From the sequence record SRR31156797_1719: a DNA stretch of 64,000 bases; one strand, written 5' to 3'. A program made the position numbers and the translations under genes. This document shows, piece by piece, positions 9,882 to 25,234 of this stretch; the first letter of the stretch is position 1, and each line of letters starts with the position of its first letter. The notes below the pieces were generated by a model. That model was not told the origin of the DNA. It was given only the letters and a program-made list of their open reading frames with translations, and did not search any database.

Positions 9882-9986
9882 CTTCCGTTGTCTCCTTTTC
9901 CGTATGTCTGAGAGTATCATAAGGATTTACTTACTATTTGTAAAACAATTCATCTCCTAATCGTAAGAAGGCAATAAGAAATAGAC

Positions 9987-10011: not shown

Positions 10012-10121
10012 ACTCTTTCTTTTGAATCTATAGTACACGAGTAAGCAAATTTATTACCTTTACAGTTATCTCAAGTAATCCTAATAAACAACTTGCAAAA
10101 AACATTTAGGAGAGATTTATT

Positions 10122-11798
10122 ATGAATAAGAACGGTGCAGACTTGATTGTAGATACATTGATTAAAAATGGTGTGGAATATGTCTTTCAATTGCCAGGCG
10201 GCAAGTTGGGTCCGTTATTAATGGCTTTGAAAAAACGTGAAGAGATTAAAGTTGTTACGGTAAGACATGAACAAAATGCTGGTTTCATGGCACAAGGAAT
10301 TGGGCGCATGACTGGTAAACCTGGTGTAGTGATGACTACGTCAGGACCGGGGGCTTTGAATTTGGTCACGCCCTTAGCTACGGCGACTTCTGATGGTGAC
10401 CCGGTATTGGCTATTGCCGGACAAGTTCCACAAGCGAAGTTAGTAACACCGTATCCTCAAAATCCTAATATTTCTGGCGTAATGAATGATTCAACGATTA
10501 CTAAATATGCCAAGGAAATTCAGCATACCGATGCCCTTGCGGATGAAGTAGCGAATGCGTATGTCTCAAGTATCAATGGCAATCCCGGGGCCGTTTTTAT
10601 GGATATTCCAAGTAATATTCTGTTAGCTGAGACCACTAAATCTGGTTTGGCTTTTTCGACCTTAGTGAATCAATTGGACAATACGATTAGTGACGAAGCT
10701 GCCATTCTTAGTGCAGTTGAGAAAATCAAAGCGGCAAAACGCCCAGTTATTATCGTTGGTGCTCGGGCAGCCGATGATAATGCGGCGGCTGCCATTCAAG
10801 GGTTCGTTAAAAAAACGGGAATTCCGGTCGTGGAGACGTTCGAAGCTACAGGTCTATTGACGCATGAGTTTTCCCAAAACTATGTGGGTCGAGTGGGGCT
10901 GTTTAATAACCTGCCTGGGGATGAACTGGTTTTTAACAGTGATTTAGTGATTACATTGGGATTAAATTTGGTTGAATACTGGGCTTCTGTTTGGAATACC
11001 GATAACAAGCGCATTATTGATATTGATACTGTAGTGGATCATTTAGATGAAACTTATCTCCCTGACACCATCCTCTTAGGCAATATCGCAAAAAATCTAA
11101 AAAATATTACCAATAGCATAACGGAACAAGCCATTACGGATGAGTGGAAAATGGTGGTTCATGACTTGCAAGAAAAATTGACAGCGAAGAAAAAAGTACC
11201 CAGCCAAACACCTGAGGATGCACTACATCCATTGGAAATTGTTGACTCTTTGCAAAAAATAATCGAGGCTCATCCAAATACGACCGTTGTTATGGATGGA
11301 GGAAGTCATGAAGTGTGGCTGGGTTCGTACCTAAATGTGTATCGGCCAAAACATTTCTTAATGTCTGATGGGGAACAAACCTTAGGCGTCGGTCTTCCTT
11401 GGGCGATTTCAGCAGCACTGTTACGTCCAGAGGAAAAGATTTTGTCTTCAGGTGGGGATGGCAGCTTTATGTTTTCCTCACAAGAATTAGCTACAGTAGC
11501 CCATTACAATTTGAATATTGTGCAAGTAATCTGGGTGGATAAAGAATACAACATGGTTGAATTCCAACAAGAACTAGACTATAACGGACAAAAAGAAGGG
11601 GTCGATATCGATTATATTGGGTATAAAGAAATGGCTGAAAGCTACGGTATTAAAGCAGTTCGTGTACGTTCCAAAGAAGCTTTAGATGCTGCGCTGAAGG
11701 AAGCGTACGCTACGAGTGAACCAAGAGTGATTGAAATGATCGAAGACAATCATGAGAATATTCATTTACGAGATAAAGAACCGTTTAAAAAGTACTGA
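10122..11798 (+). CDS. alsS: ThDP-dependent acetolactate synthase-like enzyme (AlsS-type)
   Basis: RHEQNAGFMA, TSGPG, YVGRVGLF.N.PGD, GGDGSFMFSSQEL...NMV ThDP motif; several positions diverge from canonical AlsS. Confidence 0.8.
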   Translation: MNKNGADLIVDTLIKNGVEYVFQLPGGKLGPLLMALKKREEIKVVTVRHEQNAGFMAQGIGRMTGKPGVVMTTSGPGALNLVTPLATATSDGDPVLAIAGQVPQAKLVTPYPQNPNISGVMNDSTITKYAKEIQHTDALADEVANAYVSSINGNPGAVFMDIPSNILLAETTKSGLAFSTLVNQLDNTISDEAAILSAVEKIKAAKRPVIIVGARAADDNAAAAIQGFVKKTGIPVVETFEATGLLTHEFSQNYVGRVGLFNNLPGDELVFNSDLVITLGLNLVEYWASVWNTDNKRIIDIDTVVDHLDETYLPDTILLGNIAKNLKNITNSITEQAITDEWKMVVHDLQEKLTAKKKVPSQTPEDALHPLEIVDSLQKIIEAHPNTTVVMDGGSHEVWLGSYLNVYRPKHFLMSDGEQTLGVGLPWAISAALLRPEEKILSSGGDGSFMFSSQELATVAHYNLNIVQVIWVDKEYNMVEFQQELDYNGQKEGVDIDYIGYKEMAESYGIKAVRVRSKEALDAALKEAYATSEPRVIEMIEDNHENIHLRDKEPFKKY

Positions 11799-12366
11799 GT
11801 CTTTCTACTATGGGCCACAAAACATGTGTTAGAAAAGAATGGCAATGCACCTTTACTACGTTAAAGAAAAGAAAGTTCTTTTTACAATAAAAACAGTGCC
11901 TGACTAAAAATATGAAGTGGAATTTTTAGAGAATCCAGGACAGAAGTCTTTAATAAAATGCCGTTGGTAAGGACGATGATTCGTTTGCTGCTAGCGGTAT
12001 TTTTGTTAGCATCTCCTCTGATTTTTTCGGAGAAAAGGTCTGCCAATTCGGCACTGTCTTAAAAAAGCACATCGATACTCTAAATACGGTGGATAGCGGT
12101 GATTTGGATACGTGTTTCTAGTCTTCATAGAGGCAGATTTCAAGTAAGTCGAATGAAGGAAATTAAGCACTTCCTATGTTGTTTGATGGAAGAATTATTA
12201 GTGAGGAGACTCCTTTTTCCAGCTAAGGAATGACTTCTATAGGATGGTTTCCTTGTTAATTGTTGTAAGTATAATGTGTAAAAATATTTTAAGTTTCTTT
12301 TTTTAATGATTGATATGTATAATAAGATGGTAAAGCAATAAAGTGTATGCTGAAAAGAGGTCTCTT

Positions 12367-12615
12367 ATGAAAAAATTTGCACTCGGCGTTTTTTGTTTCA
12401 GTCTTTTTATCACGGTCGTTGGCTTTTTTTTACAAACGATTTTGATTCCTATTCAAGATTTTGACACAATAAGCCAAGAAGAGCTTAAGAATATCCAACT
12501 TGATCTTGCTATTAATTATCCATTAGGAACTGGTATGCTCTATGTCGGACTTCCTTTGTTAGTATGCTCGAGTGGTTATTTGGTTTATTGTTATTTTAGA
12601 GATAGGAAGAACTGA
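12367..12615 (+). CDS. Small membrane protein (two hydrophobic helices)
   Basis: Probable ATG at 12367 behind AAGAGG; two TM segments. Confidence 0.6.
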   Translation: MKKFALGVFCFSLFITVVGFFLQTILIPIQDFDTISQEELKNIQLDLAINYPLGTGMLYVGLPLLVCSSGYLVYCYFRDRKN

Positions 12616-12669
12616 AAGAAGAGTAAAACTATCTGGAGTATAAAGCTTTCGTTCATTAGGAGGGATAAG

Positions 12670-13284
12670 TTGAAAAGAGGGTTATTTTTATTGTTTTATG
12701 TCCTATGGAAGGGGCTAGCAATACGTGGCATTCCTTCTTTTTATGCAAGATATTTGATGAGTTATAATCATTTCGGAGTAAAACTATTGTTCGTTTTACT
12801 TGGTATCCTTCTTTTCCGTAACTATTTAGTAGAGAGTTATAAAAAGATAAATAAAATTGCGCTAATAAAAATCGGTCTCATCGTACCTACTAGTATTATC
12901 CTCACTATCGGTTTAATTAATATTCTTTTATTTCGTGATCTCAATGCGTTGATTTTTGTTTATCTCTCCGATCAAAGAACCCTTCCATTTGTATTCGATG
13001 TACTTTTGCTAGCACCTGTTTTCGAGGAAATGCTTTATCGCTATACACTGATTTATGTTGGAGAAAAACGATGGTTGAGAATCATCACTGCTGTCGGAAG
13101 CCTCTTGCTTTTTACTGAAAGTCATATCGTAAATGTGAACGGGAATCTTTTTGCTCTTTTTCCCTACTTTGTCATAGGGTTTTATTTGACGATCACCTAT
13201 TTACGTAGGGGAAATATTTGGGAATCCATTTTTGCACATAGCTTCTATAATTTCGTTGTGATGGCAGCAGCTATCTTGATCTAA
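12670..13284 (+). CDS. CPBP (CAAX/Abi) family intramembrane metalloprotease
   Basis: APVFEEMLYR, F..SH and H..YN motifs; hydrophobic protein; TTG start with GGAGG RBS. Confidence 0.85.
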   Translation: MKRGLFLLFYVLWKGLAIRGIPSFYARYLMSYNHFGVKLLFVLLGILLFRNYLVESYKKINKIALIKIGLIVPTSIILTIGLINILLFRDLNALIFVYLSDQRTLPFVFDVLLLAPVFEEMLYRYTLIYVGEKRWLRIITAVGSLLLFTESHIVNVNGNLFALFPYFVIGFYLTITYLRRGNIWESIFAHSFYNFVVMAAAILI

Positions 13285-13594
13285 AGATTTCTTCTTAATG
13301 TTTCCTCTTAATAGTAGAAGAATTGGGGGCAATTTATCTATTATGTACGTATAGAATCTCTAAAACATATTTGGTGAAAGTACATTTGAGAGGTCAGAGA
13401 AGCGTCTTAGGCATGTTGTTTTGTACAGTTCTTATCTACGAATGTCTGTCCTTCGTCATTTTTTAGATCATCATTTAGGTTCCACTGCTAAATATGAAAA
13501 GCAACTCCTTGTTCAAAGATGACTCACTGGCCCTATTTCCAAGAACATTGTCATACTGACAAAGAAAAGTGACGACATACAATTCAGTAAGAAC

Positions 13595-13642
13595 TAATAC
13601 AAGTCCGCTTCCTTTTGCAATGTGAGCGGACTTGTATTGGTT
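13595..13642 (-). terminator. Putative terminator downstream of the aldo/keto reductase gene
   Basis: AATACAAGTCCGCT...AGCGGACTTGTATT stem. Confidence 0.55.
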
Positions 13643-13660
13643 TTCTTCAATAAAAACCTA

Positions 13661-14527
13661 TTAACTTTCAGTATCTAACATCCGCTCCATAAACCATTCC
13701 ACTTGTTGGGGGGCATCGTGGTCAAAGAATGCGGACTCTTTTTTATCTAAAGCGGCTATTTTTTCAATGTCTTCTTGGGAAAGCTCAAAGTCAAAAATAG
13801 CAATGTTTTCAGCCATCCGTTCTGGACGAACTGTTTTTGCTAAAGCGACAATCCCTCTTTGCATCAACCAGCGAAGAACAACTTGACCAACCGTTTTGCC
13901 ATATTGCTTGCCAATTTCTGCTAATGTCGGATTGGTAAATAGGTCATGGCGTCCTTCTGCAAAGGGAGCCCAAGCTTCAACTTGGACGTCATATTTTTCA
14001 TGCCATTCCTGATCTTCCGCTCGTTGATTCCAAGGGTTCACTTCGATTTGATTGATTTGAGGTTTCGCCTCATTCAAGCCGACAAACTCGATCATCTTAG
14101 CTGATTTGAAATTTGAAACGCCAATTGCACGTAATTTTCCTGTTTTTTGAGCAGCAACCATTGAGCGCCAAGCACCATAAATATCTCCATATGGTTGGTG
14201 AATAAGGTAGAGATCAAGATAAGTTAATCCCATTGTTTCAAGCGAATGTTCAATCGTTTCTTTCGCTTTATCTTCGGAAGCTTGGAGAATAAATAATTTA
14301 GAGGTAACAAAAAGTTCTTCTCGAGTGACTAGACCTTCAGTGATGGCGCGCTTGATTCCCTCGCCTGTTTCTGTTTCATTTCCATAAATAGAAGCAGTGT
14401 CGATCAGTCGATACCCAGCTTTGATTGCTTGGTAAACAGCTTCTGCTGTTTCTTCCAAAGGTATTTGATAAACGCCAAATCCTAGTTGCGGCATGGTGAC
14501 ACCATTATTGAGTGTGATTGTTTGCAT
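13661..14527 (-). CDS. Aldo/keto reductase (2,5-DKG reductase-like)
   Basis: LNNG..MPQLGFGVYQ, GYRLIDTAS.YGNE, YLDLYLIHQP, IGVSNF; start at ATG 14527 with GAGGAGG RBS. Confidence 0.93.
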   Translation of the reverse strand: MQTITLNNGVTMPQLGFGVYQIPLEETAEAVYQAIKAGYRLIDTASIYGNETETGEGIKRAITEGLVTREELFVTSKLFILQASEDKAKETIEHSLETMGLTYLDLYLIHQPYGDIYGAWRSMVAAQKTGKLRAIGVSNFKSAKMIEFVGLNEAKPQINQIEVNPWNQRAEDQEWHEKYDVQVEAWAPFAEGRHDLFTNPTLAEIGKQYGKTVGQVVLRWLMQRGIVALAKTVRPERMAENIAIFDFELSQEDIEKIAALDKKESAFFDHDAPQQVEWFMERMLDTES

Positions 14528-14561
14528 AATGTTTCCTCCTCTAATTTTCATTGCATGTTCT

Positions 14562-14592
14562 ATCCTAAACCTTGGAGTTAAGTCCATAGCAA
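14562..14592 (-). promoter_or_regulatory. MerR-type promoter (19-bp spacer) for the aldo/keto reductase
   Basis: Minus strand TTGCTA-19 nt-TAGGAT with an imperfect dyad in the spacer. Confidence 0.7.
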
Positions 14593-14602
14593 GTGAAAGA
14601 TG

Positions 14603-15022
14603 TTACTTTTTTCGTTCCCATAATTTTTCCACTTTATCAGGGGTCATATTTCCTGCTTTAAATTTTGCGATATGCTCATCATACGTTTCTATCTTATAAA
14701 TAAGTAGGTCTCTTACTTCCTGCATTGCTGCTAACTTTTTCTCTAATTCTTCGAGTTGATCGGCTAAAATCTGTTTCTGAGCTGTTTCGACGTTTTGACT
14801 TTCACGTACTTGTGCCAATTGAGCAAATTCAATTAGCGATTCGATCGACAATCCTGCATTTCGTAAATGTTTTGCTAAATAGATCCAGTTTAGATCATTT
14901 GTTGTGTACACCCGATAGCCACTCTCATTGCGTTGGACAGGTGGAATCACACCGACTCGTTCATAATAGCGCAATGTGTCTACGCTCAAATCAAACATTT
15001 CCGCTGCTTTTTTTATATTCAT
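14603..15022 (-). CDS. MerR family regulator (AdhR/NmlR-like)
   Basis: MNIKKAAE...S.DTLRYYER.GVIPPV.RNESGYR.Y. Confidence 0.93.
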   Translation of the reverse strand: MNIKKAAEMFDLSVDTLRYYERVGVIPPVQRNESGYRVYTTNDLNWIYLAKHLRNAGLSIESLIEFAQLAQVRESQNVETAQKQILADQLEELEKKLAAMQEVRDLLIYKIETYDEHIAKFKAGNMTPDKVEKLWERKK

Positions 15023-15052
15023 CGTTGGTTCTCCTTATCTTTTCTATAAGTA

Positions 15053-15083
15053 ATCATAAACCCTGAAGTGGACTCTAGGGCAA
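15053..15083 (-). promoter_or_regulatory. MerR-type promoter (19-bp spacer) for the merR-family gene
   Basis: Minus strand TTGCCC-19 nt-TATGAT with CCCTAGAG...CTTCAGGG dyad. Confidence 0.7.
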
Positions 15084-15411
15084 GTGGTTTAAAATCGTTT
15101 ATTGAAAAGAATATATTTTGTTCGTTATGGCGACTATTCGGGAAGAAAAAGCTACAAGCATTTTTATTTCAACAGAATGATTTGAGAAATCATCAGTATT
15201 GAAAGCTCCTTTCTTAGTGTGTTTCAAAGCAAGTCATACTCTCTTAGAATTGATTGTTTCGTTATCTATTTGAGCGAGGCAGTTTTTATCCATAGATTTT
15301 AAATAAATCCATCTCATGTTATGATGATGTTGAAAATTCTTAACTTGGATCAATGAAACAGCGATTCTTGTTATGAAAAACGAAAATAAGCTGATGAGAG
15401 TGTGACTATCC

Positions 15412-15864
15412 ATGAATATAAAAGAAGTAAGTAGTATGAATCAAAAGTTAGAGCAACAATTAATTGAAGTATGGGAGAGTTCTGTTAAGGCGACGCACAC
15501 CTTTTTGTCAGAGACCGAAATCCAAGCCATTAAGCAATACATTCCAGAGGCATTGCATCATGTGCCACATTTGATTATCGTAGAAAGTGAAAATGGAGAG
15601 CCAGCTGGCTTCATGGGGATCTCGGATCGAAATCTTGAAATGCTTTTTATAGCAAATGAACAAAGAGGCAAGGGACTAGGAAGAAAACTCTTGGCATACG
15701 GGATGGAAAACTATTCTGTAAATGAACTGGGAGTAAATGAACAGAATCCTCAGGCGAAAGGATTTTATGAGCATATGGGATTTGAGGTATACAAAAGAAG
15801 CGAGTTAGACGAACAAGGAAACCCTTATCCAATTCTTTATATGAAGAAAGTTGATAACAAGTAG
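15412..15864 (+). CDS. GNAT family acetyltransferase (YjaB-like)
   Basis: VWESSVKATHTFL, LEMLFI, RGKGLGRKL, VNEQNPQA.GFYEHMGF, DEQGNPYP. Confidence 0.9.
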   Translation: MNIKEVSSMNQKLEQQLIEVWESSVKATHTFLSETEIQAIKQYIPEALHHVPHLIIVESENGEPAGFMGISDRNLEMLFIANEQRGKGLGRKLLAYGMENYSVNELGVNEQNPQAKGFYEHMGFEVYKRSELDEQGNPYPILYMKKVDNK

Positions 15865-15899
15865 CTGTTAAAAATTATTTGCGTTTGCGGGAAATATGT

Positions 15900-15943
15900 A
15901 AGAAGGAGTCGAGACATATATAGCTAGTCACGACCCCTTCTTT
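15900..15943. terminator. Probable bidirectional terminator between the GNAT and precursor genes
   Basis: AAGAAGGAGTCG...CGACCCCTTCTTT stem between convergent genes. Confidence 0.6.
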
Positions 15944-15994
15944 GATTGCTATTATCCTTATTAATAAGTAAAGTAAGGATCAAATGATTTTCTC

Positions 15995-16153
15995 TTAACT
16001 AGCTTTCTCTTCTTTTTTTATCTCTTCTTTTTTCTGATTTGAAAATGGTGTATCAGTCTCTTCAGGTAAGATGATTGGTGGATGATGGGAATGCTGATTA
16101 CTTCCACACATGGTGATGATTTGTTCTTTTGAAGCTTCAGAGATTACTTTCAT
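15995..16153 (-). CDS. Putative RiPP precursor peptide, 52 aa (MKVISEASKEQIITMCGSNQHSHHPPIILPEETDTPFSNQKKEEIKKEEKAS)
   Basis: Strong GAAAGGAGAGG RBS before ATG 16153 (the 74-aa track ORF is an upstream extension); directly downstream of the ABC exporter next to two rSAM/SPASM genes. Confidence 0.7.
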   Translation of the reverse strand: MKVISEASKEQIITMCGSNQHSHHPPIILPEETDTPFSNQKKEEIKKEEKAS

Positions 16154-16215
16154 TGTATACCTCTCCTTTCTTTTATATTTCCAGATGACATAAGGTAGGC
16201 CTATATCATCTAAAT

Positions 16216-17823
16216 TCATGATTTATTTAACTGAATTAGCTCATCAAATGAACCTAGAAATTCCTGATTTGTTGAGTGAGTAACGACAATGATTATTTTA
16301 TCTGTAAGTGAGCAGATTAAGTCACTGATAATCATCTCGTTTATACTGTCTAGACCAGATGTTGGTTCGTCAAAAAGAATAACATCGGAATCTTTAAAGA
16401 TTGCCCGAGCAATCTCAAGCCGTCTAAGCTCGCCGCCAGAAAGAAAGTTTATCCATGTATTATCTTGCGTATCGGTTAAATCATTGTTATCAAAGCGATC
16501 ATCTAATCCACTTCGTTTTAAAACATCAACGATTTTTTCAAGTTCGTATTCACTAAAAATAGAAACGTTGTAAGCAATACTCGTCTGGAAGATAGCAGTT
16601 TTTTGTTGGACAAGTGCAACTTTCTCATAAAGGGAGTCTCTAGATAGCTGATTCATCTCTTGCTGGTCAACCAATACTTGATGATCGTCGATAGGGTAAA
16701 TTCCCGCTAAAATATTCAATAGTGTCGACTTCCCGCTACCGCTTGCGCCAGTGATAGCATATTTTTTTCCACGCTCAAATGTTTGAGTAAAACCATTAAA
16801 AATCAAACGATTTCCATGATGGAAATGCAGATTTTCAATCGATAAAGTATTTATTGGTTCTGCAAGTTCAAGTGAGCGATTGGGCTCATCATCATCGGTA
16901 CCATCAATGAAAGCTATAAGATCGTCCGCGACCTTCTTGCTCGCTAAAATATCTGTAACTGAAGTACTGAAATACTCTAACGGACCGGCAATCGTACTCA
17001 TTAGTGTAGTCATCGCAATAAGATCGGGAATGGTGATTATTTTGGCAGCAACAAAGAAACCACCAACGATCCATGTCCCTGAATAGGCAAGATCCCCAAG
17101 TCCAAAAGAAATTGCATAAGTCAGTCCTTGTAAGGTTTCAAAAGTGATACTTTCCTTTTTTAATCGTTCACTACTGTTAGTAAAAATTTTCGTATATGTT
17201 GGAAAACCTTTGCCGACACGTAAGGTCAGGTATCCTGAGAGAAGTTGGTCAAATAAACTAAGTGTACGATCTTGCTCCAGAACAACGGACTTGCGACGAT
17301 CACTAAGGATTCGCTTAGCGAAATAAGGGGCTAGCAAAGGACTAAAAGCTAAGAGCAGCATAATCAATGAAAAAGAAGTGTTTAATTTTAGTGTGAATAA
17401 AAGAGAGAATAGAAAGGTAAAAATGCTTAAAATCAGTCCAAATCCGGGCTTTAAAAATTCTAATTCAACGACTTTCATTTCATTTGCCAACTTTGAGAGA
17501 TACTCGTTTTTCTCATTTTTAAGAAATAGTACCGGATTCATTCGAACGATTTTCTGCGAGAGACTCTCTCTCAGTTGATTCATTATTGATTGAACTAAGA
17601 CGGATTTACTTCTTCTTGGAATAAAATCGCTCATCGTGTTCAATAAGATGTAAAAGAAGGCGAATATACCAATAAATAAAAGTCTTTTTACATCTCCTGA
17701 CATAGCAACCTCGGTGATTTGTCTATACACCAAAGCAACCCCAACTTGAATGAGCGCTGCCATTGCGCATAAAATCACATGCAAAAAGAAAAGTGGTTGG
17801 TTTCTTTTTAATATTTTTTTCAT
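16216..17823 (-). CDS. ABC exporter, fused permease + ATPase (no C39 peptidase domain)
   Basis: N-terminal TM domain, Walker A GASGSGKST, signature LSGGE, Walker B ILFDEPTS; 535 aa. Confidence 0.92.
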   Translation of the reverse strand: MKKILKRNQPLFFLHVILCAMAALIQVGVALVYRQITEVAMSGDVKRLLFIGIFAFFYILLNTMSDFIPRRSKSVLVQSIMNQLRESLSQKIVRMNPVLFLKNEKNEYLSKLANEMKVVELEFLKPGFGLILSIFTFLFSLLFTLKLNTSFSLIMLLLAFSPLLAPYFAKRILSDRRKSVVLEQDRTLSLFDQLLSGYLTLRVGKGFPTYTKIFTNSSERLKKESITFETLQGLTYAISFGLGDLAYSGTWIVGGFFVAAKIITIPDLIAMTTLMSTIAGPLEYFSTSVTDILASKKVADDLIAFIDGTDDDEPNRSLELAEPINTLSIENLHFHHGNRLIFNGFTQTFERGKKYAITGASGSGKSTLLNILAGIYPIDDHQVLVDQQEMNQLSRDSLYEKVALVQQKTAIFQTSIAYNVSIFSEYELEKIVDVLKRSGLDDRFDNNDLTDTQDNTWINFLSGGELRRLEIARAIFKDSDVILFDEPTSGLDSINEMIISDLICSLTDKIIIVVTHSTNQEFLGSFDELIQLNKS

Positions 17824-17843
17824 TCTCTCCCTCCTATGTAAAA

Positions 17844-17896
17844 ACTATATCACAAATTAAAAAAAAATTGAAATATTATTTTGTGAAATGTATAAT
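17844..17896. promoter_or_regulatory. Divergent promoters of the rSAM-peptide cluster
   Basis: + strand TTGAAA(17868)-17 nt-TATAAT(17891); - strand extended -10 TGaTATAGT at 17844-17852. Confidence 0.6.
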
Positions 17897-17918
17897 TATT
17901 GAAAAAGGGGGTTAGGTG

Positions 17919-19187
17919 ATGCGTTTTTCACGGTATGTCGATATCATTGAGAACGGTAACGAGACTATTCTTTGCAATACATTAACGCAAGAAATAGTTA
18001 CTATTGATTCAAAAAAAATGAAAAGTAAAACGGAGATTTCGAGCGAAATAAGTGAAGGTGAACGAAAATATTTATTTGAAAATGGATTTATACACGGTGA
18101 TTTGGAAAGTTATAAACAGAAAACAATCAATTTAAAGAGAGACTTAGTTACTATCACTATAAATATCACAGAAGATTGCAACTTTTCGTGTACTTATTGT
18201 TACCAGAATGATTTCCTTTCTAAAAATGTTATTACTGATCAGACGATAAATAATATAATGCAATACATTTTAGACATTGCTCAGCTAGGCGTTCGGAGAC
18301 TATATATCTATTTTTTCGGGGGCGAGCCACTTCTTTATAAAAAAAGAATTCTCGCAATTAAAAGTAAGATTGATCAAATTGCGTCAGAGAAATCACTCTC
18401 AATTTCTTATGGTTTAGGAACAAACGCCTATCTACTCACTCCAGATTTTATAAATCATTTTGATTCTTTAATTGTCGATACTACACTAACATCTAGAAAA
18501 GATCATGATAGAAATAGATCTCTTAAGAGTGGAAGCGGAACGTATGATAAGATTTTTGAAAATCTAGCGGTAGCATCTAAGAGCGGACGTGTTAAAATCC
18601 ATATTGGTTATAATACATCTGATAAAAATACAGAAGAGTTTCAGTCTTTTCTCGTTACGATCCGCCAAAGTGATATCAAAGCCCATATCAATTGCTATTA
18701 CATTAATAACTATGAGTTTAATGAAAATTATTTCAATGCATTATCCTATGAAAAATATCTAAAGTGGGTATCTTCAACTGCAATTGATCACCTAATTGAA
18801 AACGGTTTCCTGGTGAATGTCTCTCCATTTTCTTCGTATCGCTTTGAGTGCGATGCGTATAATCCTTGGTCTGTAAAGTTTTTCTCTGATGGATCTATAG
18901 GGTTATGTAATGCAACAAATTTTTATGAACGTAGAATAATAAAAAGTTTTACAGAATCATCTTCTTTTGCAGAAGATGTTCAATATAGCCTTTATGACCA
19001 AAAGAGTGTTCTTCCGAAAAGCAACAATCAGTGTAATTCATGTGAATTAATTGCAGTGTGTCGAGGAAAGGTACAGTGTGATACTTCATGTAACCCCAAC
19101 TATTCAATTGATAGAGAAACATTCATACGTTCTTTTGTAAAGCATACAAATCTAGGTAACAGAAAATTTTTTACCCAATTTAATTAG
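17919..19187 (+). CDS. Radical SAM/SPASM domain peptide maturase 1
   Basis: CNFSCTYC (CxxxCxxC), FFGGEPLL, HD.NR...GSGTY; C-terminal Cys set ECDAY..GLC..CNSC.....C.....C...C; ~75-aa N-terminal extension (RRE-like); ATG 17919 or GTG 17916. Confidence 0.88.
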   Translation: MRFSRYVDIIENGNETILCNTLTQEIVTIDSKKMKSKTEISSEISEGERKYLFENGFIHGDLESYKQKTINLKRDLVTITINITEDCNFSCTYCYQNDFLSKNVITDQTINNIMQYILDIAQLGVRRLYIYFFGGEPLLYKKRILAIKSKIDQIASEKSLSISYGLGTNAYLLTPDFINHFDSLIVDTTLTSRKDHDRNRSLKSGSGTYDKIFENLAVASKSGRVKIHIGYNTSDKNTEEFQSFLVTIRQSDIKAHINCYYINNYEFNENYFNALSYEKYLKWVSSTAIDHLIENGFLVNVSPFSSYRFECDAYNPWSVKFFSDGSIGLCNATNFYERRIIKSFTESSSFAEDVQYSLYDQKSVLPKSNNQCNSCELIAVCRGKVQCDTSCNPNYSIDRETFIRSFVKHTNLGNRKFFTQFN

Positions 19188-19197
19188 GAGTGATTTT

Positions 19198-20460
19198 ATG
19201 AAATTATCGCAATATACGATTGTTGAAGAAGTGGATAATGAAATACTTTTGTACAATTCGGTATACTCTGCTATCGTTTTACTAACTCAAAGCGAGTTCC
19301 ATGATCTACAGACTTTTATTAATAACGATAACTTTGAGAAAACAGAATTATTCTCTTACTTAGAAAATCAAAATATCATTGTTTCCGATGAGATTGATGA
19401 AGAAGCAAGATTAGTGTCTGTGGCAAATGAAAAACGATATAATCCTAGTCAAGTAACTTTCACAATTGCCCCTACGATGAACTGTAATTTTTCCTGTTTT
19501 TATTGTTACGAGCAAGGGTTTAGACAACATACTATGACTACTGAAACTGCTAAGAAAACAGCTGAGTTTATTCTTAAAAATGTATTACCCCATCAGTCAT
19601 TGAAAGTAATTTGGTATGGAGGAGAGCCTTTGATGGGATTGAACTCTATTAAAGTTATAAGTGAAATAATAATGAAAAACGAAAAAAAATATAAAAATTT
19701 CAACGCAGAAATTGTATCCAATGGTTATTTGCTAACAGAAAAAGTTGCACAACTTTTAAAAAGTTATCACGTTAATTATGCTCAAATTACTCTGGATGGG
19801 GATCAGATAAATCATGATTCTAGAAGATGTTTAACAAATGGGAAAGGGACATTTGCAAGAATATTACAGAATATAGTTAAAACTCTAAAATATATTCCAG
19901 TAACTGTAAGAGTAAATATAGATAGGGAGAATAATCATGAAGATGTTATTCGTTTGATGAACTCGCTGGATAATTTTAATTTACTTAAGAAAGTTGGCTT
20001 TTATCTTGCGCCGGTAGAGGATTTTGATACCTACAAAACACCCACATGTTATACATCCCAAGAGTTTTCGAAAGAAGAAATAATGGTTTATAAAAGTCTT
20101 TTGGAAAGAGGGATAAATATTGTTGCCATACCACGGACAACGATTGGGTTCTGCGAAGCTATCAATCGAGATGACTATGTAATCGACCCTAATGGATTTT
20201 TATATAAATGCTGGGTTCATATTGGTAAAACGATTGGACGAGTTGGAGATATCTATACAGGAATACAATTGAACAGTGTGCATAAAACATTTACAGAGTA
20301 CAAATTTTTTTCGAAAGCGAAATGTTCAAGTTGTAAAGTTCAACCTTTGTGTTTAGGAGGCTGTCCGTTAATTCGAATGAATACAGGTGAGTCGAAGTGC
20401 GTTAGCTATAAGTACAATATTGAAGAGCATATAAAAATGGCTTCGGCAAGACTAATATAA
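19198..20460 (+). CDS. Radical SAM/SPASM domain peptide maturase 2
   Basis: CNFSCFYC, WYGGEPL, QITLDG...HD.RR, RVNID; SPASM FC..VIDPNG.LYKC..CSSC....LCLGGCP..C (7 Cys); RRE-like N-terminus. Confidence 0.92.
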   Translation: MKLSQYTIVEEVDNEILLYNSVYSAIVLLTQSEFHDLQTFINNDNFEKTELFSYLENQNIIVSDEIDEEARLVSVANEKRYNPSQVTFTIAPTMNCNFSCFYCYEQGFRQHTMTTETAKKTAEFILKNVLPHQSLKVIWYGGEPLMGLNSIKVISEIIMKNEKKYKNFNAEIVSNGYLLTEKVAQLLKSYHVNYAQITLDGDQINHDSRRCLTNGKGTFARILQNIVKTLKYIPVTVRVNIDRENNHEDVIRLMNSLDNFNLLKKVGFYLAPVEDFDTYKTPTCYTSQEFSKEEIMVYKSLLERGINIVAIPRTTIGFCEAINRDDYVIDPNGFLYKCWVHIGKTIGRVGDIYTGIQLNSVHKTFTEYKFFSKAKCSSCKVQPLCLGGCPLIRMNTGESKCVSYKYNIEEHIKMASARLI

Positions 20461-20654
20461 TCTGGTGGAATATTTTTGCTTCAGAAGATTGATAAGGTCT
20501 TCTTAAAAAAATAGCTTAGTTAAATAAGGTTACTATGTTACATTGTGAATAGAATCTATACTTACTTATGAAAATAGAAAGCGTAACTCAATTTTCTCAT
20601 TCATATTGTAATAAATGATTTCTCATATTAAAATTTTTATAAGAAAACTAAATA

Positions 20655-20811
20655 GTGAGCAAAGCTCACCCCAAGCAGCCTCCGAAACTGTTTTCGGGGG
20701 CTGCTTGAGGTTTGGGGGGCTTAGCTAGCTAAGTAATGATCGATCACTAAAAAAATGATCAAAACAGAATAGGCAATTTTTTCTTTTCAATCAAAAAATT
20801 TTGATCATTTT
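20655..20811. repeat. Cluster of palindromes / inverted repeats
   Basis: GTGAGC-AAA-GCTCAC; 16-bp stem CAAGCAGCCTCCGAAA/TTTCGGGGGCTGCTTG; CTTAGCTAGCTAAG; TGATCGATCA; AAAATGATCAAAA...TTTTGATCATTTT. Confidence 0.6.
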
Positions 20812-20980
20812 ATCAAGCAGAGGATGGCACAAGTAAGTGGAAAGTAGGTAGTGGCTATTTTTTTGTTCAGGATGGGGAAGTAGATTTGTCTAGGATACGC
20901 CGGAGGATAAACGTTTTGAGGATCATTTGTTTTTGACTTACCTATGTGCCATCACTGCGGAAACCCTGTGGATGAAGGCG

Positions 20981-21409
20981 TCATGTACGACACCAGATAC
21001 TCGGATGAGAGCTAAGGACGTTTGATTGCCGTGCCTGACACGCTTTTTCTAACCGCAAAGTCGTAGGGGCTAAAGAGCTACAGCGCTGAGACAGATGACT
21101 GCCCCGTGCGATTTTGGGTGTTTTTTGAACCCTACAAGCTGCTATTGCTACGCGTCTATTCGTCGCAAGCTTGGAAGGTCTTCTCATAAAATGCCCGTCA
21201 GCTGTCAACAGGCTGCCTTTTGCATCAGGAAGCATCAGCGTTCCAACAAATCTTTTTGATCCAGTAGTCGCCCACTCATTTTGGGCAACTTCTATCCGAG
21301 AAAACATTGCGTTAGAAGTATGTCTGTCCGTCTTTTCCAGATAAAAGTCAGCTGAAAGAGGGCTGATACTTAACAAAACGGCAGTTAGGACGACCACAAG
21401 CGCTCTCAA
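20981..21409 (-). CDS. Possible secreted hypothetical protein (doubtful)
   Basis: TTG start with GAAAGGA upstream and a signal-peptide-like N-terminus, but the rest of the sequence looks atypical. Confidence 0.25.
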   Translation of the reverse strand: MRALVVVLTAVLLSISPLSADFYLEKTDRHTSNAMFSRIEVAQNEWATTGSKRFVGTLMLPDAKGSLLTADGHFMRRPSKLATNRRVAIAACRVQKTPKIARGSHLSQRCSSLAPTTLRLEKACQARQSNVLSSHPSIWCRT

Positions 21410-21592
21410 AAAAACTCAGTCCTTTCTTTTCAATGGTCATTGTTCTTATCTGCACTTCATGATAGCATCGAAACGCGAATTATTTTTCGCGTTTTTTTGT
21501 TTTTAAAATAAAAAATTAGGTATTCGCTTTTTTGGGTTAAATGGTATACCTGAGATGGAATAAAAATAATAAAAGAAAGGACAGGATTTACA

Positions 21593-22234
21593 ATGAAGAA
21601 AACATCATTAGTTGCAGGTTTCGTTTTAGGTGTAGGCGTTTTGTTTACTCTAGGTGCATGCTCAACAGTGGAAGAATCAGGGGAAGTGGTCTCTGGGTCT
21701 GGAACGGAAACGTTGATCAGCGATTCGTCAGATGAAGTAGTTGTGGGAAGTGAAAAATTGAGTGATGACGGGTATTTTGAAGAAATCGTAACTAAGGGAA
21801 TCGATCCGAAAATCAAAGACGTCGTTTGGTATGAAACGAATTATGAAAATGCTGGTTGGGATCACATTCGCTTTTTAGTGAATCATGTAAAAATCGTGAA
21901 TGTAGAAGAATTCAAAGACAAAGACAAAGAATACAAAACATTGCTCTCACTGAAATATCAATTGTTTAATGAAGATTCGAAAGACAAAAAAATCAAACCT
22001 GACAAAGCCTATTTGGTGTTGAATGATGGCAAAAAAGTAGAAGCGGAAGTGTTTGTGGACTACTTAGATGATGAGATTTTGACCCATGACAAACATAAAG
22101 ATGGCTTTATTCATTTTAAAGTGGCGCAAGAACAAAGTTTGCCAGCGATCAAAGCGGTCGAAATCGAATTTAAAGCAGATGGAGATTTGACACATACGTA
22201 CCATATTGATCTATCTTCCGCTGCTGAAAAATAG
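21593..22234 (+). CDS. Lipoprotein of unknown function, first gene of the gad operon
   Basis: Lipobox LGAC after a hydrophobic signal; acidic linker; 25 nt from gadC. Confidence 0.8.
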   Translation: MKKTSLVAGFVLGVGVLFTLGACSTVEESGEVVSGSGTETLISDSSDEVVVGSEKLSDDGYFEEIVTKGIDPKIKDVVWYETNYENAGWDHIRFLVNHVKIVNVEEFKDKDKEYKTLLSLKYQLFNEDSKDKKIKPDKAYLVLNDGKKVEAEVFVDYLDDEILTHDKHKDGFIHFKVAQEQSLPAIKAVEIEFKADGDLTHTYHIDLSSAAEK

Positions 22235-22259
22235 TATCTAACGATAGGAGGTAAAAAAA

Positions 22260-23669
22260 ATGGATACTAGCAAGAAAAAACTATCATTGTTGAGTTTTTT
22301 TGCAATAACTGCTTCAATGGTGATGACGGTATATGAGTATCCAACCTTTGCGACATCGAAGATGAATTTAGTTTTTTATTTACTCGTCGGCGGTTTCCTC
22401 TGGTTTATCCCTGTAGCCCTTTGCTCTGCGGAGATGGCTACTGTAAAGGGATGGGAAAAAGGGGGACTCTATACCTGGGTCTCAAAAACATTAGGGAGAA
22501 AATGGGGCTTTGCTGCCATTTTCTTCCAATGGTTCCAAATCACGGTAGGCTTTATTACGATGATTTACTTTATTGTCGGGGCGCTTTCCTATGCCCTAAA
22601 TTGGCCGGCTCTTAATACGAATGTTTGGCTGAAGCTGATTGCCACTTTAGTGATCTTTTGGCTGATCACGATCTCGCAATTTGGCGGAACAAAAAATACT
22701 GCGAAGATTGCCAAAGTAGGGTTCTTTGTGGGGATCGTCGCAACAGGGATCATTCTTTTTATCTTAGGAATTGTCTACATTGCTCAAGGGAATCCCGTCA
22801 AAGTTTCTTTTGGATCAGGCGCTTGGATTCCTGATTTCACGAAAATCAATACGCTGGTCGTTTTTGTTTCCTTTATTTTAGCCTATGCAGGGGTTGAATC
22901 TTCTGCCAGTCACGTAAAAGATATGGACAATCCTGGAAAGAATTACCCGAAAGCTATTTTGATTTTAGTTGTAGCAACGATTCTTTTGGATACGTTAGGT
23001 GGGGCAACGGTGGCTGCCACGATTCCCCAAAATCAATTGTCTCTTGATACTGGCGTGATTCAAGCCTATTCTTATTTGATCCATCATTTTGGCGGCGGAG
23101 AATGGCTGGTTCGTTTGATTGCCGTGGTCATCTGTTTAGGTGTCATTGCAGAAATTGCTGCTTGGGTGGTCGGCCCATCGACTGCGATGCTTGAAGCAGC
23201 TGAAAATGGCTTGCTGCCAAAACAAATGGCCAAAGTCAATCAACACAATGTCCCAATCAATATCGTTTTGGTACAAGGCATCATTGTTTCCATTTGGGCG
23301 GTTGTCTTGACATTAGGCGGTGGAGGCGCCAATCTATCCTTCTTCGTTGCGATGGCGTTGACGGTCTGCATCTATCTGGTGGCTTATGTCCTCTTGTTTC
23401 TTTCCTATATTAAATTAGTCAAAGAAAAAGACGACTTAACAAGAACGTATCATATTCCTGGTGGGAAAAATGTGAAAATTGGTGTTGCGATGGTTGGTTT
23501 GCTTGTTTCTATTTTTTCTTTCTTTATTTCCTTCTTTCCACCGAGCGATATCGGCACCGGAAAGGGCGGAACCTATTTAGCCATCTTGATCATCAGTTGG
23601 CTGATTATTGTCGTGATACCGTTTGTCATCTATAAATATGTAGGTGAAAAAGCAAGCGATAAAAAATAA
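22260..23669 (+). CDS. gadC: Glutamate:GABA antiporter
   Basis: APC transporter with FFAITASMVM.VYEYPTFATS signature, directly upstream of the decarboxylase. Confidence 0.92.
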   Translation: MDTSKKKLSLLSFFAITASMVMTVYEYPTFATSKMNLVFYLLVGGFLWFIPVALCSAEMATVKGWEKGGLYTWVSKTLGRKWGFAAIFFQWFQITVGFITMIYFIVGALSYALNWPALNTNVWLKLIATLVIFWLITISQFGGTKNTAKIAKVGFFVGIVATGIILFILGIVYIAQGNPVKVSFGSGAWIPDFTKINTLVVFVSFILAYAGVESSASHVKDMDNPGKNYPKAILILVVATILLDTLGGATVAATIPQNQLSLDTGVIQAYSYLIHHFGGGEWLVRLIAVVICLGVIAEIAAWVVGPSTAMLEAAENGLLPKQMAKVNQHNVPINIVLVQGIIVSIWAVVLTLGGGGANLSFFVAMALTVCIYLVAYVLLFLSYIKLVKEKDDLTRTYHIPGGKNVKIGVAMVGLLVSIFSFFISFFPPSDIGTGKGGTYLAILIISWLIIVVIPFVIYKYVGEKASDKK

Positions 23670-23698
23670 AAAGCACAACCTATGAGGAGGAGAGCTGC

Positions 23699-25093
23699 AT
23701 GTTATTTAGTAAAAAAAATCGAAAAGAAGCCCAATATTTGGAGCCTATCTATGGGAATGAGGCAATGGATCAAGCGATCCCTATGTACAAATTACCAAAA
23801 GAGTCCTTGGTACCGCGGGATGCCTATGAATTAGTCAAAGATCAATTGATCGATGAAGGGGTCTCAAGACAAAATTTGGCGACGTTCTGTCAAACCTACA
23901 TGGAACCAGAAGCAGTCAAAATTATGAGTGAAACCCTTGATAAAAACGCCATCGATAAAACCGAGTACCCACGGACAGCAGAAATTGAAAACCGCTGTGT
24001 CAATATGATCGCTGATTTATGGCATGCCCCAGAAGCGTCCGATTTTATCGGTACATCAACGGTAGGCTCAAGTGAAGCGTGTATGTTAGGTGGATTGGCC
24101 TTAAAATTTGCTTGGCGCAATCGGGCAAAAAAACTTGGCTTAGATATCAATAAACAAAAACCAAACTTAGTGATTTCTTCTGCCTATCAAGTCGTTTGGG
24201 AAAAATTCTGTGTCTACTGGGACATTGAAATGCGAACGATCCCTATCGATGAAGAACATGGCAGCATTAATGTTGAAAAGGTCACGGACTATTTAGATGA
24301 ATATACGATCGGGGTCGTTGGTATTTTAGGAATCACTTACACTGGACGATACGATGATATCAAAGCACTAGACAAGAAATTAGAGGAATACAACAAACAC
24401 ACCGACTACAAAGTCTACATCCACGTGGATGCGGCTAGTGGGGGATTGTACACGCCATTTATGGAACCAGAACTTGAATGGGATTTCCGTTTGAAAAACG
24501 TTCGTTCCATCAGTACGTCTGGACATAAATATGGGTTAGTCTACCCTGGTATCGGTTGGGTGCTTTGGAAAGAAAAAGATTTCTTACCAGAAGAGTTGGT
24601 CTTTAAAGTAAGTTATCTTGGCGGTGAAATGCCAACGATGGCCATCAACTTTTCAAGAAGCGCCAGCCAAATCATCGGACAATATTACACCTTTATCCGC
24701 AATGGGTTTGAAGGCTACCGCTTGATCCACAAAAAGACCAGCGATGTTGCCCAATATTTAGCAAAAGAGATTGAAAACATGGGTTACTTCGATATTTATA
24801 ATGATGGTTCACGGTTGCCGATCGTCTGCTACAAATTAAAAGAAGATGCCGATATTTCTTGGAATCTGTATGATTTGACGGATGAATTTGCGATGAAAGG
24901 CTGGCAAGTCCCTACCTATCCATTACCTGATAATCTATCACATATCAATATCCAACGCTTTGTCTGCCGGGCAGATTTAAGTATGCAAATGGCAATGGAT
25001 CTGGTGCAAGACATGAAAGAAGGAATCGAGCGCTTGAACAAGCGACCAAGCCGTCATGTTTCATCCGATCAAACCTATGGCTTTTCACATTAA
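23699..25093 (+). CDS. gadB: Glutamate decarboxylase (PLP-dependent)
   Basis: QNLATFCQTYME, NAIDK.EYP, STVGSSEACMLGG, HVDAASGG, STSGHKYG (PLP lysine). Confidence 0.96.
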   Translation: MLFSKKNRKEAQYLEPIYGNEAMDQAIPMYKLPKESLVPRDAYELVKDQLIDEGVSRQNLATFCQTYMEPEAVKIMSETLDKNAIDKTEYPRTAEIENRCVNMIADLWHAPEASDFIGTSTVGSSEACMLGGLALKFAWRNRAKKLGLDINKQKPNLVISSAYQVVWEKFCVYWDIEMRTIPIDEEHGSINVEKVTDYLDEYTIGVVGILGITYTGRYDDIKALDKKLEEYNKHTDYKVYIHVDAASGGLYTPFMEPELEWDFRLKNVRSISTSGHKYGLVYPGIGWVLWKEKDFLPEELVFKVSYLGGEMPTMAINFSRSASQIIGQYYTFIRNGFEGYRLIHKKTSDVAQYLAKEIENMGYFDIYNDGSRLPIVCYKLKEDADISWNLYDLTDEFAMKGWQVPTYPLPDNLSHINIQRFVCRADLSMQMAMDLVQDMKEGIERLNKRPSRHVSSDQTYGFSH

Positions 25094-25193
25094 GAAACGG
25101 TATCGCTAGAAACCCTTTCATTGCTTTTTTCAATGAATAAAAAGTCCCTTTATGAAACGTTTTTTGCAAGACTGAATGAACATTGGTTTATAG

Positions 25194-25234
25194 AAAAATC
25201 AAAGGCGGTTGCATCGACTGCCTTTGATTTTTTT
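25194..25234 (+). terminator. Intrinsic terminator of the gad operon
   Basis: AAAATCAAAGGCGGT...ACTGCCTTTGATTTT followed by T-run. Confidence 0.75.

What the first reader, a model, noticed from the sequence alone, without database searches (positions are those of the whole stretch)
15995..20460. Putative new RiPP system: two radical SAM/SPASM maturases, an ABC exporter and a His/Pro-core precursor
Seen in the sequence: two tandem, clearly divergent rSAM enzymes, each with CxxxCxxC, GGEP, a Cys-rich SPASM tail and an N-terminal extension. They are transcribed divergently from an ABC exporter plus a 52-aa ORF with a strong RBS, and the block is visibly AT-richer than the 21-58 kb region. Established: rSAM/SPASM enzymes with RRE domains next to a small ORF and an exporter are the hallmark of sactipeptide, ranthipeptide, streptide-like and cyclophane RiPP clusters. 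Inference: this cluster makes a crosslinked peptide. The precursor does not resemble precursors I know (SCIFF, subtilosin, streptide, enteropeptin). The block has no SHP/Rgg regulator and no dedicated peptidase, so it may be an undescribed enterococcal RaS-RiPP family.
Basis: partly seen in the sequence, partly recalled or inferred. Interest (0 to 1): 0.9.

Follow-up and report, generated by a model that had tools for sequence, protein, structure and literature searches.

The report
Two-maturase radical SAM peptide cluster
A small, strain-variable four-gene cassette in an Enterococcus genome looks built to make, crosslink and export a short peptide, and it belongs to a family whose chemistry has not been worked out.

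Summary
Window 15907-20715 is a 4.8-kb cassette. It holds a 52-aa ORF, a peptidase-less ABC exporter and, on the other strand, two radical SAM/SPASM enzymes that share only 27-29% identity. The nearest genome (G001) lacks the cassette and carries a WxL surface-protein cluster at the same site.

Neither enzyme reaches the cut-off of any NCBIfam family. Their best partial matches are all peptide maturases, and the closest solved structure is CteB.

The 52-aa ORF is a real, conserved gene. Relatives with 46-74% identity over the matched stretch occur in Streptococcus suis, Vagococcus acidifermentans and an unnamed assembly. They conserve the N-terminal 25 residues, with one invariant Cys-Gly followed by N-Q/K-x-S/A-H-H, and they differ after that. 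Small ORFs with a Cys-Gly motif lie next to rSAM1-clade genes in 8 of 9 lineages and next to none of 78 rSAM2-relative loci. Their sequence link to the close group is not statistically significant.

Best reading (0.7): an uncharacterised RaS-RiPP. rSAM1 acts on the Cys-Gly site, probably forming a thioether. rSAM2 adds a second modification, and the ABC protein exports the product.

The S. suis counterpart may be one of the catalogued but uncharacterised streptococcal subfamilies (for example "KIS"). I could not check this. The complex prediction never ran.

The parts
15907..20715 (.). Strain-variable cassette holding the four genes
   Evidence: The nearest genome G001 matches window 9000-15906 and 20716-27000 at 99-100% identity, with 9.9 kb of other DNA in between. 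The junctions are clean, with no repeats or IS elements. GC content is 0.31-0.37.
15995..16153 (-). 52-aa putative precursor peptide. Residues 1-15 look like a leader. Cys16-Gly17 is invariant, followed by N-Q-H-S-H-H and a variable Lys/Glu-rich tail.
   Evidence: Strong RBS. Relatives P0234, P0236 and P0237 score E 2e-10 to 3e-4 against 1.84 billion proteins. Alignment A3. The DNA is identical in 5 of 5 other copies.
16216..17823 (-). ABC exporter with fused permease and ATPase and no peptidase domain
   Evidence: Pfam ABC_membrane and ABC_tran. Best NCBIfam matches are bacteriocin and sactipeptide exporters, below their cut-offs. Homologues lie next to the peptide in G032 (47% identity) and G108 (37%).
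17868..17896 (+). Promoter-like site for the rSAM1-rSAM2 operon, in the 92-bp divergent intergenic region 17824-17915
   Evidence: TTGAAA-17-TATAAT, 11 of 12 positions, the best site in the region. This is a consensus match only.
17916..19187 (+). rSAM1, a radical SAM/SPASM maturase of a rare clade that travels with Cys-Gly peptides. The real start is probably the ATG at 17919.
   Evidence: AlphaFold model with pLDDT 80.7. Best Foldseek hit is CteB (5why, E 2e-14). The clade has 100/100 support.
19198..20460 (+). rSAM2, a radical SAM/SPASM maturase of a large clade related to TIGR04463 and Clo7bot
   Evidence: TIGR04463 scores 254.7 bits against a cut-off of 525. 5322 relatives were found. AlphaFold model with pLDDT 90.4. 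CteB is the best solved relative, E 8e-38.
15900..15942 (-). Hairpin after the peptide gene, probably the end of that operon, lying at the left junction of the cassette
   Evidence: Folding energy -23 kcal/mol, z -6.2, and 0 of 200 shuffles fold as well. The terminator scan did not flag it.
20659..20725 (+). Long hairpin after rSAM2, lying at the right junction of the cassette
   Evidence: Folding energy -41.6 kcal/mol, z -5.8, and 0 of 200 shuffles fold as well.

Best explanation
The cassette is a self-contained biosynthetic cluster for a radical-SAM-modified ribosomal peptide (RaS-RiPP) of an uncharacterised family.

Proposed mechanism (inferred throughout):
- The 52-aa ORF is the precursor. 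Its first ~15 residues serve as a short leader that docks on the N-terminal RRE-like domain of the enzymes.
- rSAM1 acts at the invariant Cys16-Gly17 site. Its clade is the one that co-occurs with Cys-Gly peptides. The most likely reaction is a thioether from the Cys sulfur to a carbon of a nearby residue, as in its closest characterised relatives. I put this step alone at about 0.45.
- rSAM2 occurs together with rSAM1 only in the close group, whose peptides carry the extra N-Q/K-x-S/A-H-H segment. It adds a second modification, probably in that segment.
- The peptidase-less ABC protein exports the product. The leader or tail is trimmed by a protease encoded elsewhere.

What is shown: the genes, their motifs and folds, the conservation of the peptide, and its linkage to the rSAM1 clade and to the ABC protein. 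What is inferred: that the peptide is the substrate, which enzyme does what, the chemistry, and export. The biological role (antimicrobial or signal) is unknown.
For: 1. Both enzymes have the full catalytic and auxiliary-cluster Cys sets and an RRE-like N-terminus. All their leading family and structure matches are peptide maturases: CteB, TigE, SuiB, SkfB, ChlB, PapB, CefB, Clo7bot and TIGR04463.

2. The small ORF is conserved as protein across genera. Over the matched stretch, identity is 56% to P0234 (named Vagococcus acidifermentans), 74% over 27 residues to P0236 (S. suis), and 46% to P0237. The start at MK(V/I)I is conserved, which favours the 52-aa reading.

3. The peptide keeps its neighbours:
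- In G032 it directly follows a 47%-identical ABC gene.
- In G108 a Cys-Gly small ORF lies between a 37%-identical ABC gene and a 47%-identical rSAM1 gene.
- S. suis has both enzymes under consecutive accession numbers.
- An unnamed assembly has both enzymes on contigs of the same lengths.

4. Small ORFs with a Cys-Gly motif about 15 residues from the start lie beside rSAM1-clade genes in 8 of 9 lineages. These are this one, G032, G108, L118/119, L120, L121/122, L123 (weak) and G769. None was found on the 3-kb contig L117. None scored E<0.01 beside the 78 rSAM2-relative loci or beside 68 more distant loci.

5. The G769 peptide was found by the profile without having been used to build it. It scored E 6e-6 in a search of the six-frame segments of that 11-kb locus alone.

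6. Operon layout supports co-expression: strong RBSs, a divergent promoter-like site, and hairpins at both ends. All four ORFs are intact here and in 5 of 6 other copies. Four of those are complete. L013 was checked only at the two enzymes (tblastn) and by ungapped DNA alignment.
Against: - No product or modification has been observed.
- The sequence link between the close peptides and the distant Cys-Gly peptides is not significant. A profile built from the four close peptides finds none of the distant ones at E<10, except G769 at E 9. A profile built from the distant ones finds the Vagococcus peptide at E 0.04 and this one at E 1.9. Four of the distant peptides were first picked with a loose pattern.
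- In S. suis, adjacency of the peptide to the enzymes was not shown, because I could not obtain S. suis DNA.
- The precursor has only one Cys and no recognisable cleavage motif.
- Neither Pfam SPASM nor PqqD matched.
- The family shows decay elsewhere: rSAM1 is frameshifted in G108 and in copy L116, the rSAM is truncated in G032, and one assembly holds a frameshifted peptide (P0233).
- Within the species, non-synonymous changes equal or exceed synonymous ones in the ABC gene and rSAM1.
Confidence: 0.7

Rival explanations
1. The small ORF is not the substrate. It is an accessory of the ABC transporter or a chance-conserved ORF, and the two enzymes mature some other peptide or protein encoded elsewhere.
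For: In this genome and in G032 the ORF sits with the ABC gene, not with the enzymes. G032 keeps the ABC gene and the peptide but has only a 117-aa rSAM fragment. The peptide has a single Cys, unlike the Cys-rich substrates of the nearest families.
Against: Distant rSAM1-clade genes that lack an adjacent ABC gene still have a Cys-Gly small ORF right beside them: L118, L121 and G769. No other candidate small ORF with an RBS lies in the cassette. Nothing else in the 4.8 kb could be a substrate.
Confidence: 0.1
2. The cassette is an inactive relic that is no longer expressed or no longer makes a product.
For: Homologous clusters are visibly decaying in G108, G032, copy L116 and variant P0233. The ratio of non-synonymous to synonymous changes is high in the ABC gene (9 to 5) and in rSAM1 (7 to 5) between copies. 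The cassette is rare and patchy.
Against: All four reading frames, all catalytic Cys, the RBSs and a near-consensus promoter are intact here. The four genes are intact in 4 of 5 metagenome copies, and the peptide DNA is unchanged in 5 of 5 other copies.
Confidence: 0.1
3. Only rSAM1 works on this peptide. rSAM2 is redundant, acts as a partner without catalysing its own step (as reported for one enzyme pair in thuricin CD), or serves another substrate.
For: The peptide family tracks the rSAM1 clade only. G108 lacks rSAM2. A paper on thuricin CD reports two rSAM enzymes acting synergistically (PMC12093266, seen as a search listing and abstract only).
Against: rSAM2 keeps every catalytic and auxiliary Cys. 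It is paired with rSAM1 in S. suis and in an unnamed assembly at 53-60% identity. The H-H segment appears only in the peptides of the lineages that have or had the pair, but that rests on 3-4 lineages.
Confidence: 0.1

Closest known systems
CteB / SCIFF and the ranthipeptide-sactipeptide maturases (PapB, TIGR04463, Clo7bot CtpM, CefB)
   Same: They share the three-part build of RRE-like N-terminus, radical SAM core and SPASM domain with seven conserved Cys. CteB is the best solved relative of both enzymes. TIGR04463, Clo7bot and CefB are the best profiles for rSAM2.
   Different: No curated cut-off is reached (254.7 of 525, 226 of 600, 192 of 600). Their substrates, as the family names say, are Cys-rich. 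This peptide has one Cys.
Streptococcal RaS-RiPP operons (streptosactin GggA/B/C, NxxC, suisactin and others)
   Same: Both are small operons with a precursor, an rSAM/SPASM enzyme and a peptidase-less ABC exporter in Lactobacillales. The ABC protein aligns end to end with the streptosactin exporter profile GggC. S. suis holds the nearest homologues.
   Different: This cassette has no rgg/shp, two enzymes rather than one, and profile scores far below the cut-offs (GggB 57 of 650, GggC 142 of 750, ryptide not among the best 25 shown for these two enzymes; it scored 50 of 600 for the L118 relative). The conserved motif sits near the N-terminus rather than the C-terminus.
'KIS' and 'CGx' subfamilies of the 2018 streptococcal network (uncharacterised)
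   Same: KIS is listed as S. suis-only, and the S. suis peptide P0236 ends in K-I-S. CGx and this peptide both carry C-G-x. Both subfamilies are listed as 'function not characterized' in 2026 (PMC13361665, passages).
   Different: Membership cannot be verified because the primary paper is not held. Rgg-linked loci in family f3 have precursors ending G/V-C-G-S-G-C, with enzymes in a separate clade 26-27% identical to rSAM1. They would fit CGx better than this cluster does.
Two-enzyme sactipeptide systems (thuricin CD TrnC/D, ruminococcin C RumMC1/2)
   Same: They also have two rSAM/SPASM genes in one RiPP cluster with an ABC transporter (papers seen as search listings and abstracts only).
   Different: Those systems have two or more precursors (recalled). 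Only one was found here. The RumMC profile scores 65 of 720.

Membership tests
RaS-RiPP biosynthetic cluster (generic) | Radical SAM enzyme with CxxxCxxC and a SAM-binding GGE motif | tested here: met
   C88/92/95 and C96/100/103 are present and GGEP is invariant. Pfam Radical_SAM scores 51.8 and 60.1 bits.
RaS-RiPP biosynthetic cluster (generic) | SPASM/twitch auxiliary-cluster cysteines | tested here: met
   Seven C-terminal Cys are conserved in 6 of 6 and in 24 of 24 relatives. The PF13186 profile itself did not hit.
RaS-RiPP biosynthetic cluster (generic) | RiPP recognition element | tested here: inconclusive
   The models show three strands followed by two helices (rSAM1) or three (rSAM2) at residues 7-81. 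CteB aligns over 419 alignment columns. There is no PqqD Pfam hit, and no RRE-specific tool was available.
RaS-RiPP biosynthetic cluster (generic) | A co-conserved precursor gene in the cluster | tested here: met
   Caveat: the distant peptides are linked by context and motif, not by significant similarity.
RaS-RiPP biosynthetic cluster (generic) | Peptide shown to be modified | not testable with these tools
   This needs co-expression and mass spectrometry.
Sactipeptide / ranthipeptide | Cys-to-carbon thioether in the product | not testable with these tools
   A single invariant Cys is available as donor. The chemistry is inferred only.
TIGR04463 family maturase | Score at or above the curated cut-off of 525 bits | tested here: not met
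   rSAM2 scores 254.7 bits and rSAM1 98.8 bits.
Clo7bot (CtpM), CefB, PapB, SCIFF, CcpM, GggB, RumMC, ryptide maturases | Score at or above each curated cut-off | tested here: not met
   All are below their cut-offs for both enzymes and for the S. suis homologues.
Rgg/SHP-controlled streptococcal RaS-RiPPs | Adjacent rgg regulator (and shp) | tested here: not met
   There are only four genes between the cassette junctions. The flanking MerR and GNAT genes are shared with G001, which lacks the cassette. The S. suis loci were not seen.
'KIS' subfamily (S. suis) | Precursor belongs to the KIS cluster of the 2018 network | not testable with these tools
   The paper and its supplements are not held. 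The only lead is the K-I-S ending of P0236.
Thuricin CD-like two-component sactibiotic | Two precursor genes for two enzymes | tested here: not met
   One small ORF with an RBS lies in the cassette. The profile search finds one copy per locus.

The most novel reading that the evidence does not exclude
The family makes a new kind of crosslinked peptide. rSAM1 modifies the invariant Cys-Gly. rSAM2 installs a second, non-thioether link within the conserved N-Q-x-S-H-H segment, for example one that involves a histidine. The resulting Cys/His-rich product could bind metal rather than act as a classical bacteriocin. That would be a new RaS-RiPP class shared by S. suis, E. casseliflavus and Vagococcus, spread as a regulator-less cassette.
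Probability: 0.2. Interest if true: 0.75.

Novelty: new variant of a known kind. Interest (0 to 1): 0.5.

Why it matters
RaS-RiPPs have repeatedly yielded new enzyme chemistry, including carbon-carbon, ether and thioether crosslinks, and peptides that shape streptococcal and gut communities.

This cassette defines a compact, testable system of four genes with one 52-aa substrate. Its enzymes fall outside every curated family. Its precursor has an unusual layout: a short leader, a single Cys-Gly and a His cluster.

It links an Enterococcus casseliflavus-group cassette to a cluster that is common in the pig pathogen S. suis. It also suggests a division of labour between two maturases that can be tested by co-expression.

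If the S. suis counterpart is one of the six streptococcal subfamilies still listed as uncharacterised, this work supplies a second, Rgg-free host and a wider family context for it.

The finding is not surprising in kind. Many uncharacterised RaS-RiPP families exist.

Tried and rejected
- Complex prediction (rSAM1 alignment A2 with peptide alignment A3) never ran. The machine gave no usable answer. There is therefore no result either way.
- I could not obtain S. suis DNA. A sample of 401 genomes of family f3 gave only G108. A sample of 401 genomes of genus g19 gave 0 hits with P0256. The metagenome scan returned only near-identical Enterococcus-type copies and distant relatives. The viral scan gave 4 distant hits. 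Plasmid tblastn gave nothing above 28% identity.
- A sample of 401 genomes of the order gave 0 hits at E<=1e-30.
- Rfam found nothing in 10-26 kb.
- Neither NCBIfam nor Pfam has a family for any of the peptides. The ESM Atlas gave no usable hit.
- Literature: 'casseliflavus + radical SAM + RiPP' gave one listing, which I did not open. The motif search 'IITMCG' gave 0 papers. Bushin 2018 is not held. The bioRxiv preprint 10.1101/467670 (passages) describes other types.
- Earlier findings of this scan: nothing was returned. One search was a malformed query and was not repeated.
- I looked by eye for precursors of rSAM2 relatives upstream of 8 of the 78 loci (a ninth, L053, had too little upstream DNA) and found no consistent candidate.
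- Within-species variation was too low to test selection on the peptide: 0 differences in 159 nt.
- I considered the 74-aa reading of the ORF and rejected it, because homologues start at the internal MK(V/I)I.
- I considered the CAAX-type protease at 12670-13284 as a cluster peptidase and rejected it, because it lies in a flank shared with G001, which lacks the cassette.

Full report
**What is there**

Between 15995 and 20460 the window holds four ORFs:
- On the minus strand, an ABC protein (16216-17823, 535 aa) followed by a small ORF (15995-16153, 52 aa; 74 aa if read from 16219).
- On the plus strand, two radical SAM genes: rSAM1 (17916-19187, 423 aa) and rSAM2 (19198-20460, 420 aa).

The 52-aa reading has AAAGGAGAGG six bases before its ATG. 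The ABC gene, rSAM1 and rSAM2 also have good ribosome-binding sites. The 92-bp divergent spacer contains the best promoter-like site of the region, TTGAAA-17-TATAAT at 17868-17896. Strong hairpins follow both operons, at -23 and -41.6 kcal/mol, with z scores near -6.

**The enzymes**

Both hit Pfam Radical_SAM and Fer4_12 only. In NCBIfam their leading matches are peptide-modifying rSAM/SPASM maturases, but none reaches its curated cut-off:
- rSAM2: TIGR04463 254.7 of 525, Clo7bot 226 of 600, CefB 192 of 600.
- rSAM1: geopeptide 106 of 400, TIGR04463 99 of 525.

The two enzymes are 27-29% identical to each other.

I built two alignments. A1 holds rSAM2 and 23 of the 120 listed hits. A2 holds rSAM1 and 7 of 110 hits. 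In these alignments:
- CxxxCxxC and GGEP are invariant.
- Seven C-terminal Cys are conserved in 24 of 24 rSAM2 relatives.
- Seven C-terminal Cys are conserved in 6 of 6 full-length rSAM1 relatives. I left out two truncated rows.

The AlphaFold models have pLDDT 80.7 and 90.4. Each starts with three strands followed by helices, which is the topology of an RRE. Foldseek places rSAM1 next to CteB, anSME, TigE, SuiB, ChlB and SkfB. By sequence profile, CteB is the best solved relative of both enzymes. The Pfam SPASM and PqqD profiles did not hit.

**A cassette in a variable site**

The window's own assembly is not held. The nearest genome, G001, matches window 9000-15906 and 20716-27000 at 99-100% identity. 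In between it carries 9.9 kb of other DNA. That DNA encodes an amine oxidase, an Mga-like regulator and a WxL surface-protein cluster.

The junctions are clean, with no repeats or IS elements. The cassette is therefore 15907-20715 and holds nothing except the four genes. The MerR, GNAT and CAAX-protease genes to its left belong to the shared flank.

The same cassette occurs at 98% DNA identity in G003 and in L013, whose record title is Enterococcus casseliflavus NBRC 100478. It also occurs in five metagenome contigs.

The family is rare in the samples searched:
- Among the 134 genomes searched of the family (f1), only G003 has it. G769 has a 29%-identical rSAM1 relative.
- A 401-genome sample of the order gave 0 hits at E<=1e-30.
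- A 401-genome sample of family f3 gave one close hit, G108.

**The small ORF is a real gene**

A word-based search of 5.8 billion proteins found only the same protein and a frameshifted variant. A full HMMER search of 1.84 billion representatives found three relatives:
- P0234, 50 aa, E 2e-10. Its cluster is named Vagococcus acidifermentans.
- P0236, 46 aa, E 5e-5, from S. suis.
- P0237, 49 aa, E 3e-4, unnamed.

All start at MK(V/I)(I/F), which supports the 52-aa reading. They conserve residues 1-25, including one invariant Cys-Gly and N-Q/K-x-S/A-H-H. After that they differ, ending in Lys/Glu-rich tails.

**Linkage to neighbouring genes**

- In G032 the peptide gene directly follows a 47%-identical ABC gene. 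Further along lie a 117-aa rSAM fragment, a second ABC gene and IS remnants.
- In G108 a 44-aa ORF with I-I-M-G-C-G-A lies between a 37%-identical ABC gene and a frameshifted, 47%-identical rSAM1 gene. There is no rSAM2.
- S. suis has rSAM2-like (60% identity) and rSAM1-like (47% in alignment A2) proteins under consecutive accession numbers. They were seen on about 125 contigs.
- An unnamed assembly has both enzymes on contigs of equal lengths.
- I could not obtain S. suis DNA, so peptide adjacency there is not shown.

**Wider pattern**

More distant rSAM1 relatives (27-34% identity) from metagenomes, and G769, each have a short ORF right beside the enzyme. Each ORF has a similar start (M-x-V-I/V) and a Cys-Gly motif about 15 residues in.

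Counting lineages, 8 of 9 rSAM1-clade loci have such an ORF. The 3-kb contig L117 has none.

A profile of the eight peptides gave no hit at E<0.01 in the 78 loci of rSAM2 relatives or in 68 loci of more distant enzymes.

A tree of 25 chosen sequences separates three clades:
- an rSAM1 clade, support 100/100;
- an rSAM2 clade, support 100/98;
- a clade of Rgg-linked enzymes.

Evidence against this wider pattern: in leave-out tests the close and distant peptide groups do not find each other significantly. The best results are E 0.04 for the Vagococcus peptide, 1.9 for this one and 9 for G769. Four of the distant peptides were first picked with a loose pattern. The wider link therefore rests on context plus motif.

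**Reading**

The simplest account is a RaS-RiPP cassette, as set out in the best explanation. rSAM1 is the enzyme tied to the Cys-Gly peptide. rSAM2 is an addition seen with the H-H-bearing peptides. The ABC protein exports the product.

A thioether from the single Cys is the likeliest first step, given the relatives of the enzymes, but nothing here shows it.

Decay of homologous clusters, and relaxed substitution patterns between copies, fit an accessory, dispensable trait.

**Comparison with what is known**

A 2026 review (PMC13361665, passages read) lists 16 streptococcal RaS-RiPP subfamilies. Six have no structure shown among the characterised ones: CGx, SSH, KIS, NEF, VSA and CGG.

KIS is listed as S. 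suis-only, and P0236 ends in K-I-S. This is a lead that I could not test, because the 2018 primary paper and its supplements are not held.

Rgg-linked loci in family f3 have precursors ending G/V-C-G-S-G-C and enzymes in a separate clade. They would fit CGx better than this cluster does.

The motif search found no paper, and the casseliflavus search gave one listing that I did not open. The PMC9389541 review (passages read) does not mention a two-enzyme S. suis cluster.

**Verdict**

This is a new variant of a known kind, with moderate interest.

Noticed in passing
L098 (G001:C47:38800-49900), equivalent to window 15907-20715: At the same site the nearest genome carries a 9.9-kb block with a flavin amine oxidase, an Mga-like regulator, an LPXTG protein and a WxL / WxL-interacting surface-protein cluster. 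The site therefore looks like a hotspot for cassette exchange.
   Followed up: partly
window 20716-21590: About 0.9 kb, conserved with G001 at 99% identity, has no convincing gene. A 142-aa minus-strand ORF (20981-21409) with a signal-peptide-like start has no Pfam family, and there is no Rfam match.
   Followed up: partly
It is probably the precursor of another uncharacterised RaS-RiPP subfamily, possibly 'CGx'.
   Followed up: partly
L124, L126-L129, around 1285-1458: Metagenome loci with 25-26% rSAM1 relatives hold a conserved ~40-aa ORF that starts M-K-I-V and contains G-C-G-V/L-C, about 3.5 kb upstream of the enzyme. It may be another related precursor type.
   Followed up: no
L002 (G001:C60:2052-6257): The nearest genome has a different rSAM/SPASM maturase-like gene (28% identity to rSAM2) interrupted by a TAG codon, next to an ABC gene. 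It looks like a second, broken RiPP-like locus.
   Followed up: no
L116 1053-2295; P0233: One metagenome copy of the cassette has an indel that shifts the rSAM1 frame near residue 55. One assembly has a frameshift in the peptide gene within the H-H-P-P codons.
   Followed up: partly
window 12670-13284 (+): A CAAX/Rce1-like intramembrane protease gene lies 2.6 kb left of the cassette, in a flank shared with G001. This family is often linked to bacteriocin immunity (recalled). No tie to the cassette was found.
   Followed up: partly
window 22260-25093 (+): An amino-acid permease gene is followed by a pyridoxal-dependent decarboxylase gene. This looks like a glutamate decarboxylase / antiporter acid-resistance pair.
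   Followed up: partly
window 43000-52000: GC content rises to 0.49-0.51 here, against 0.31-0.44 in most of the window. I did not examine this region.
   Followed up: no
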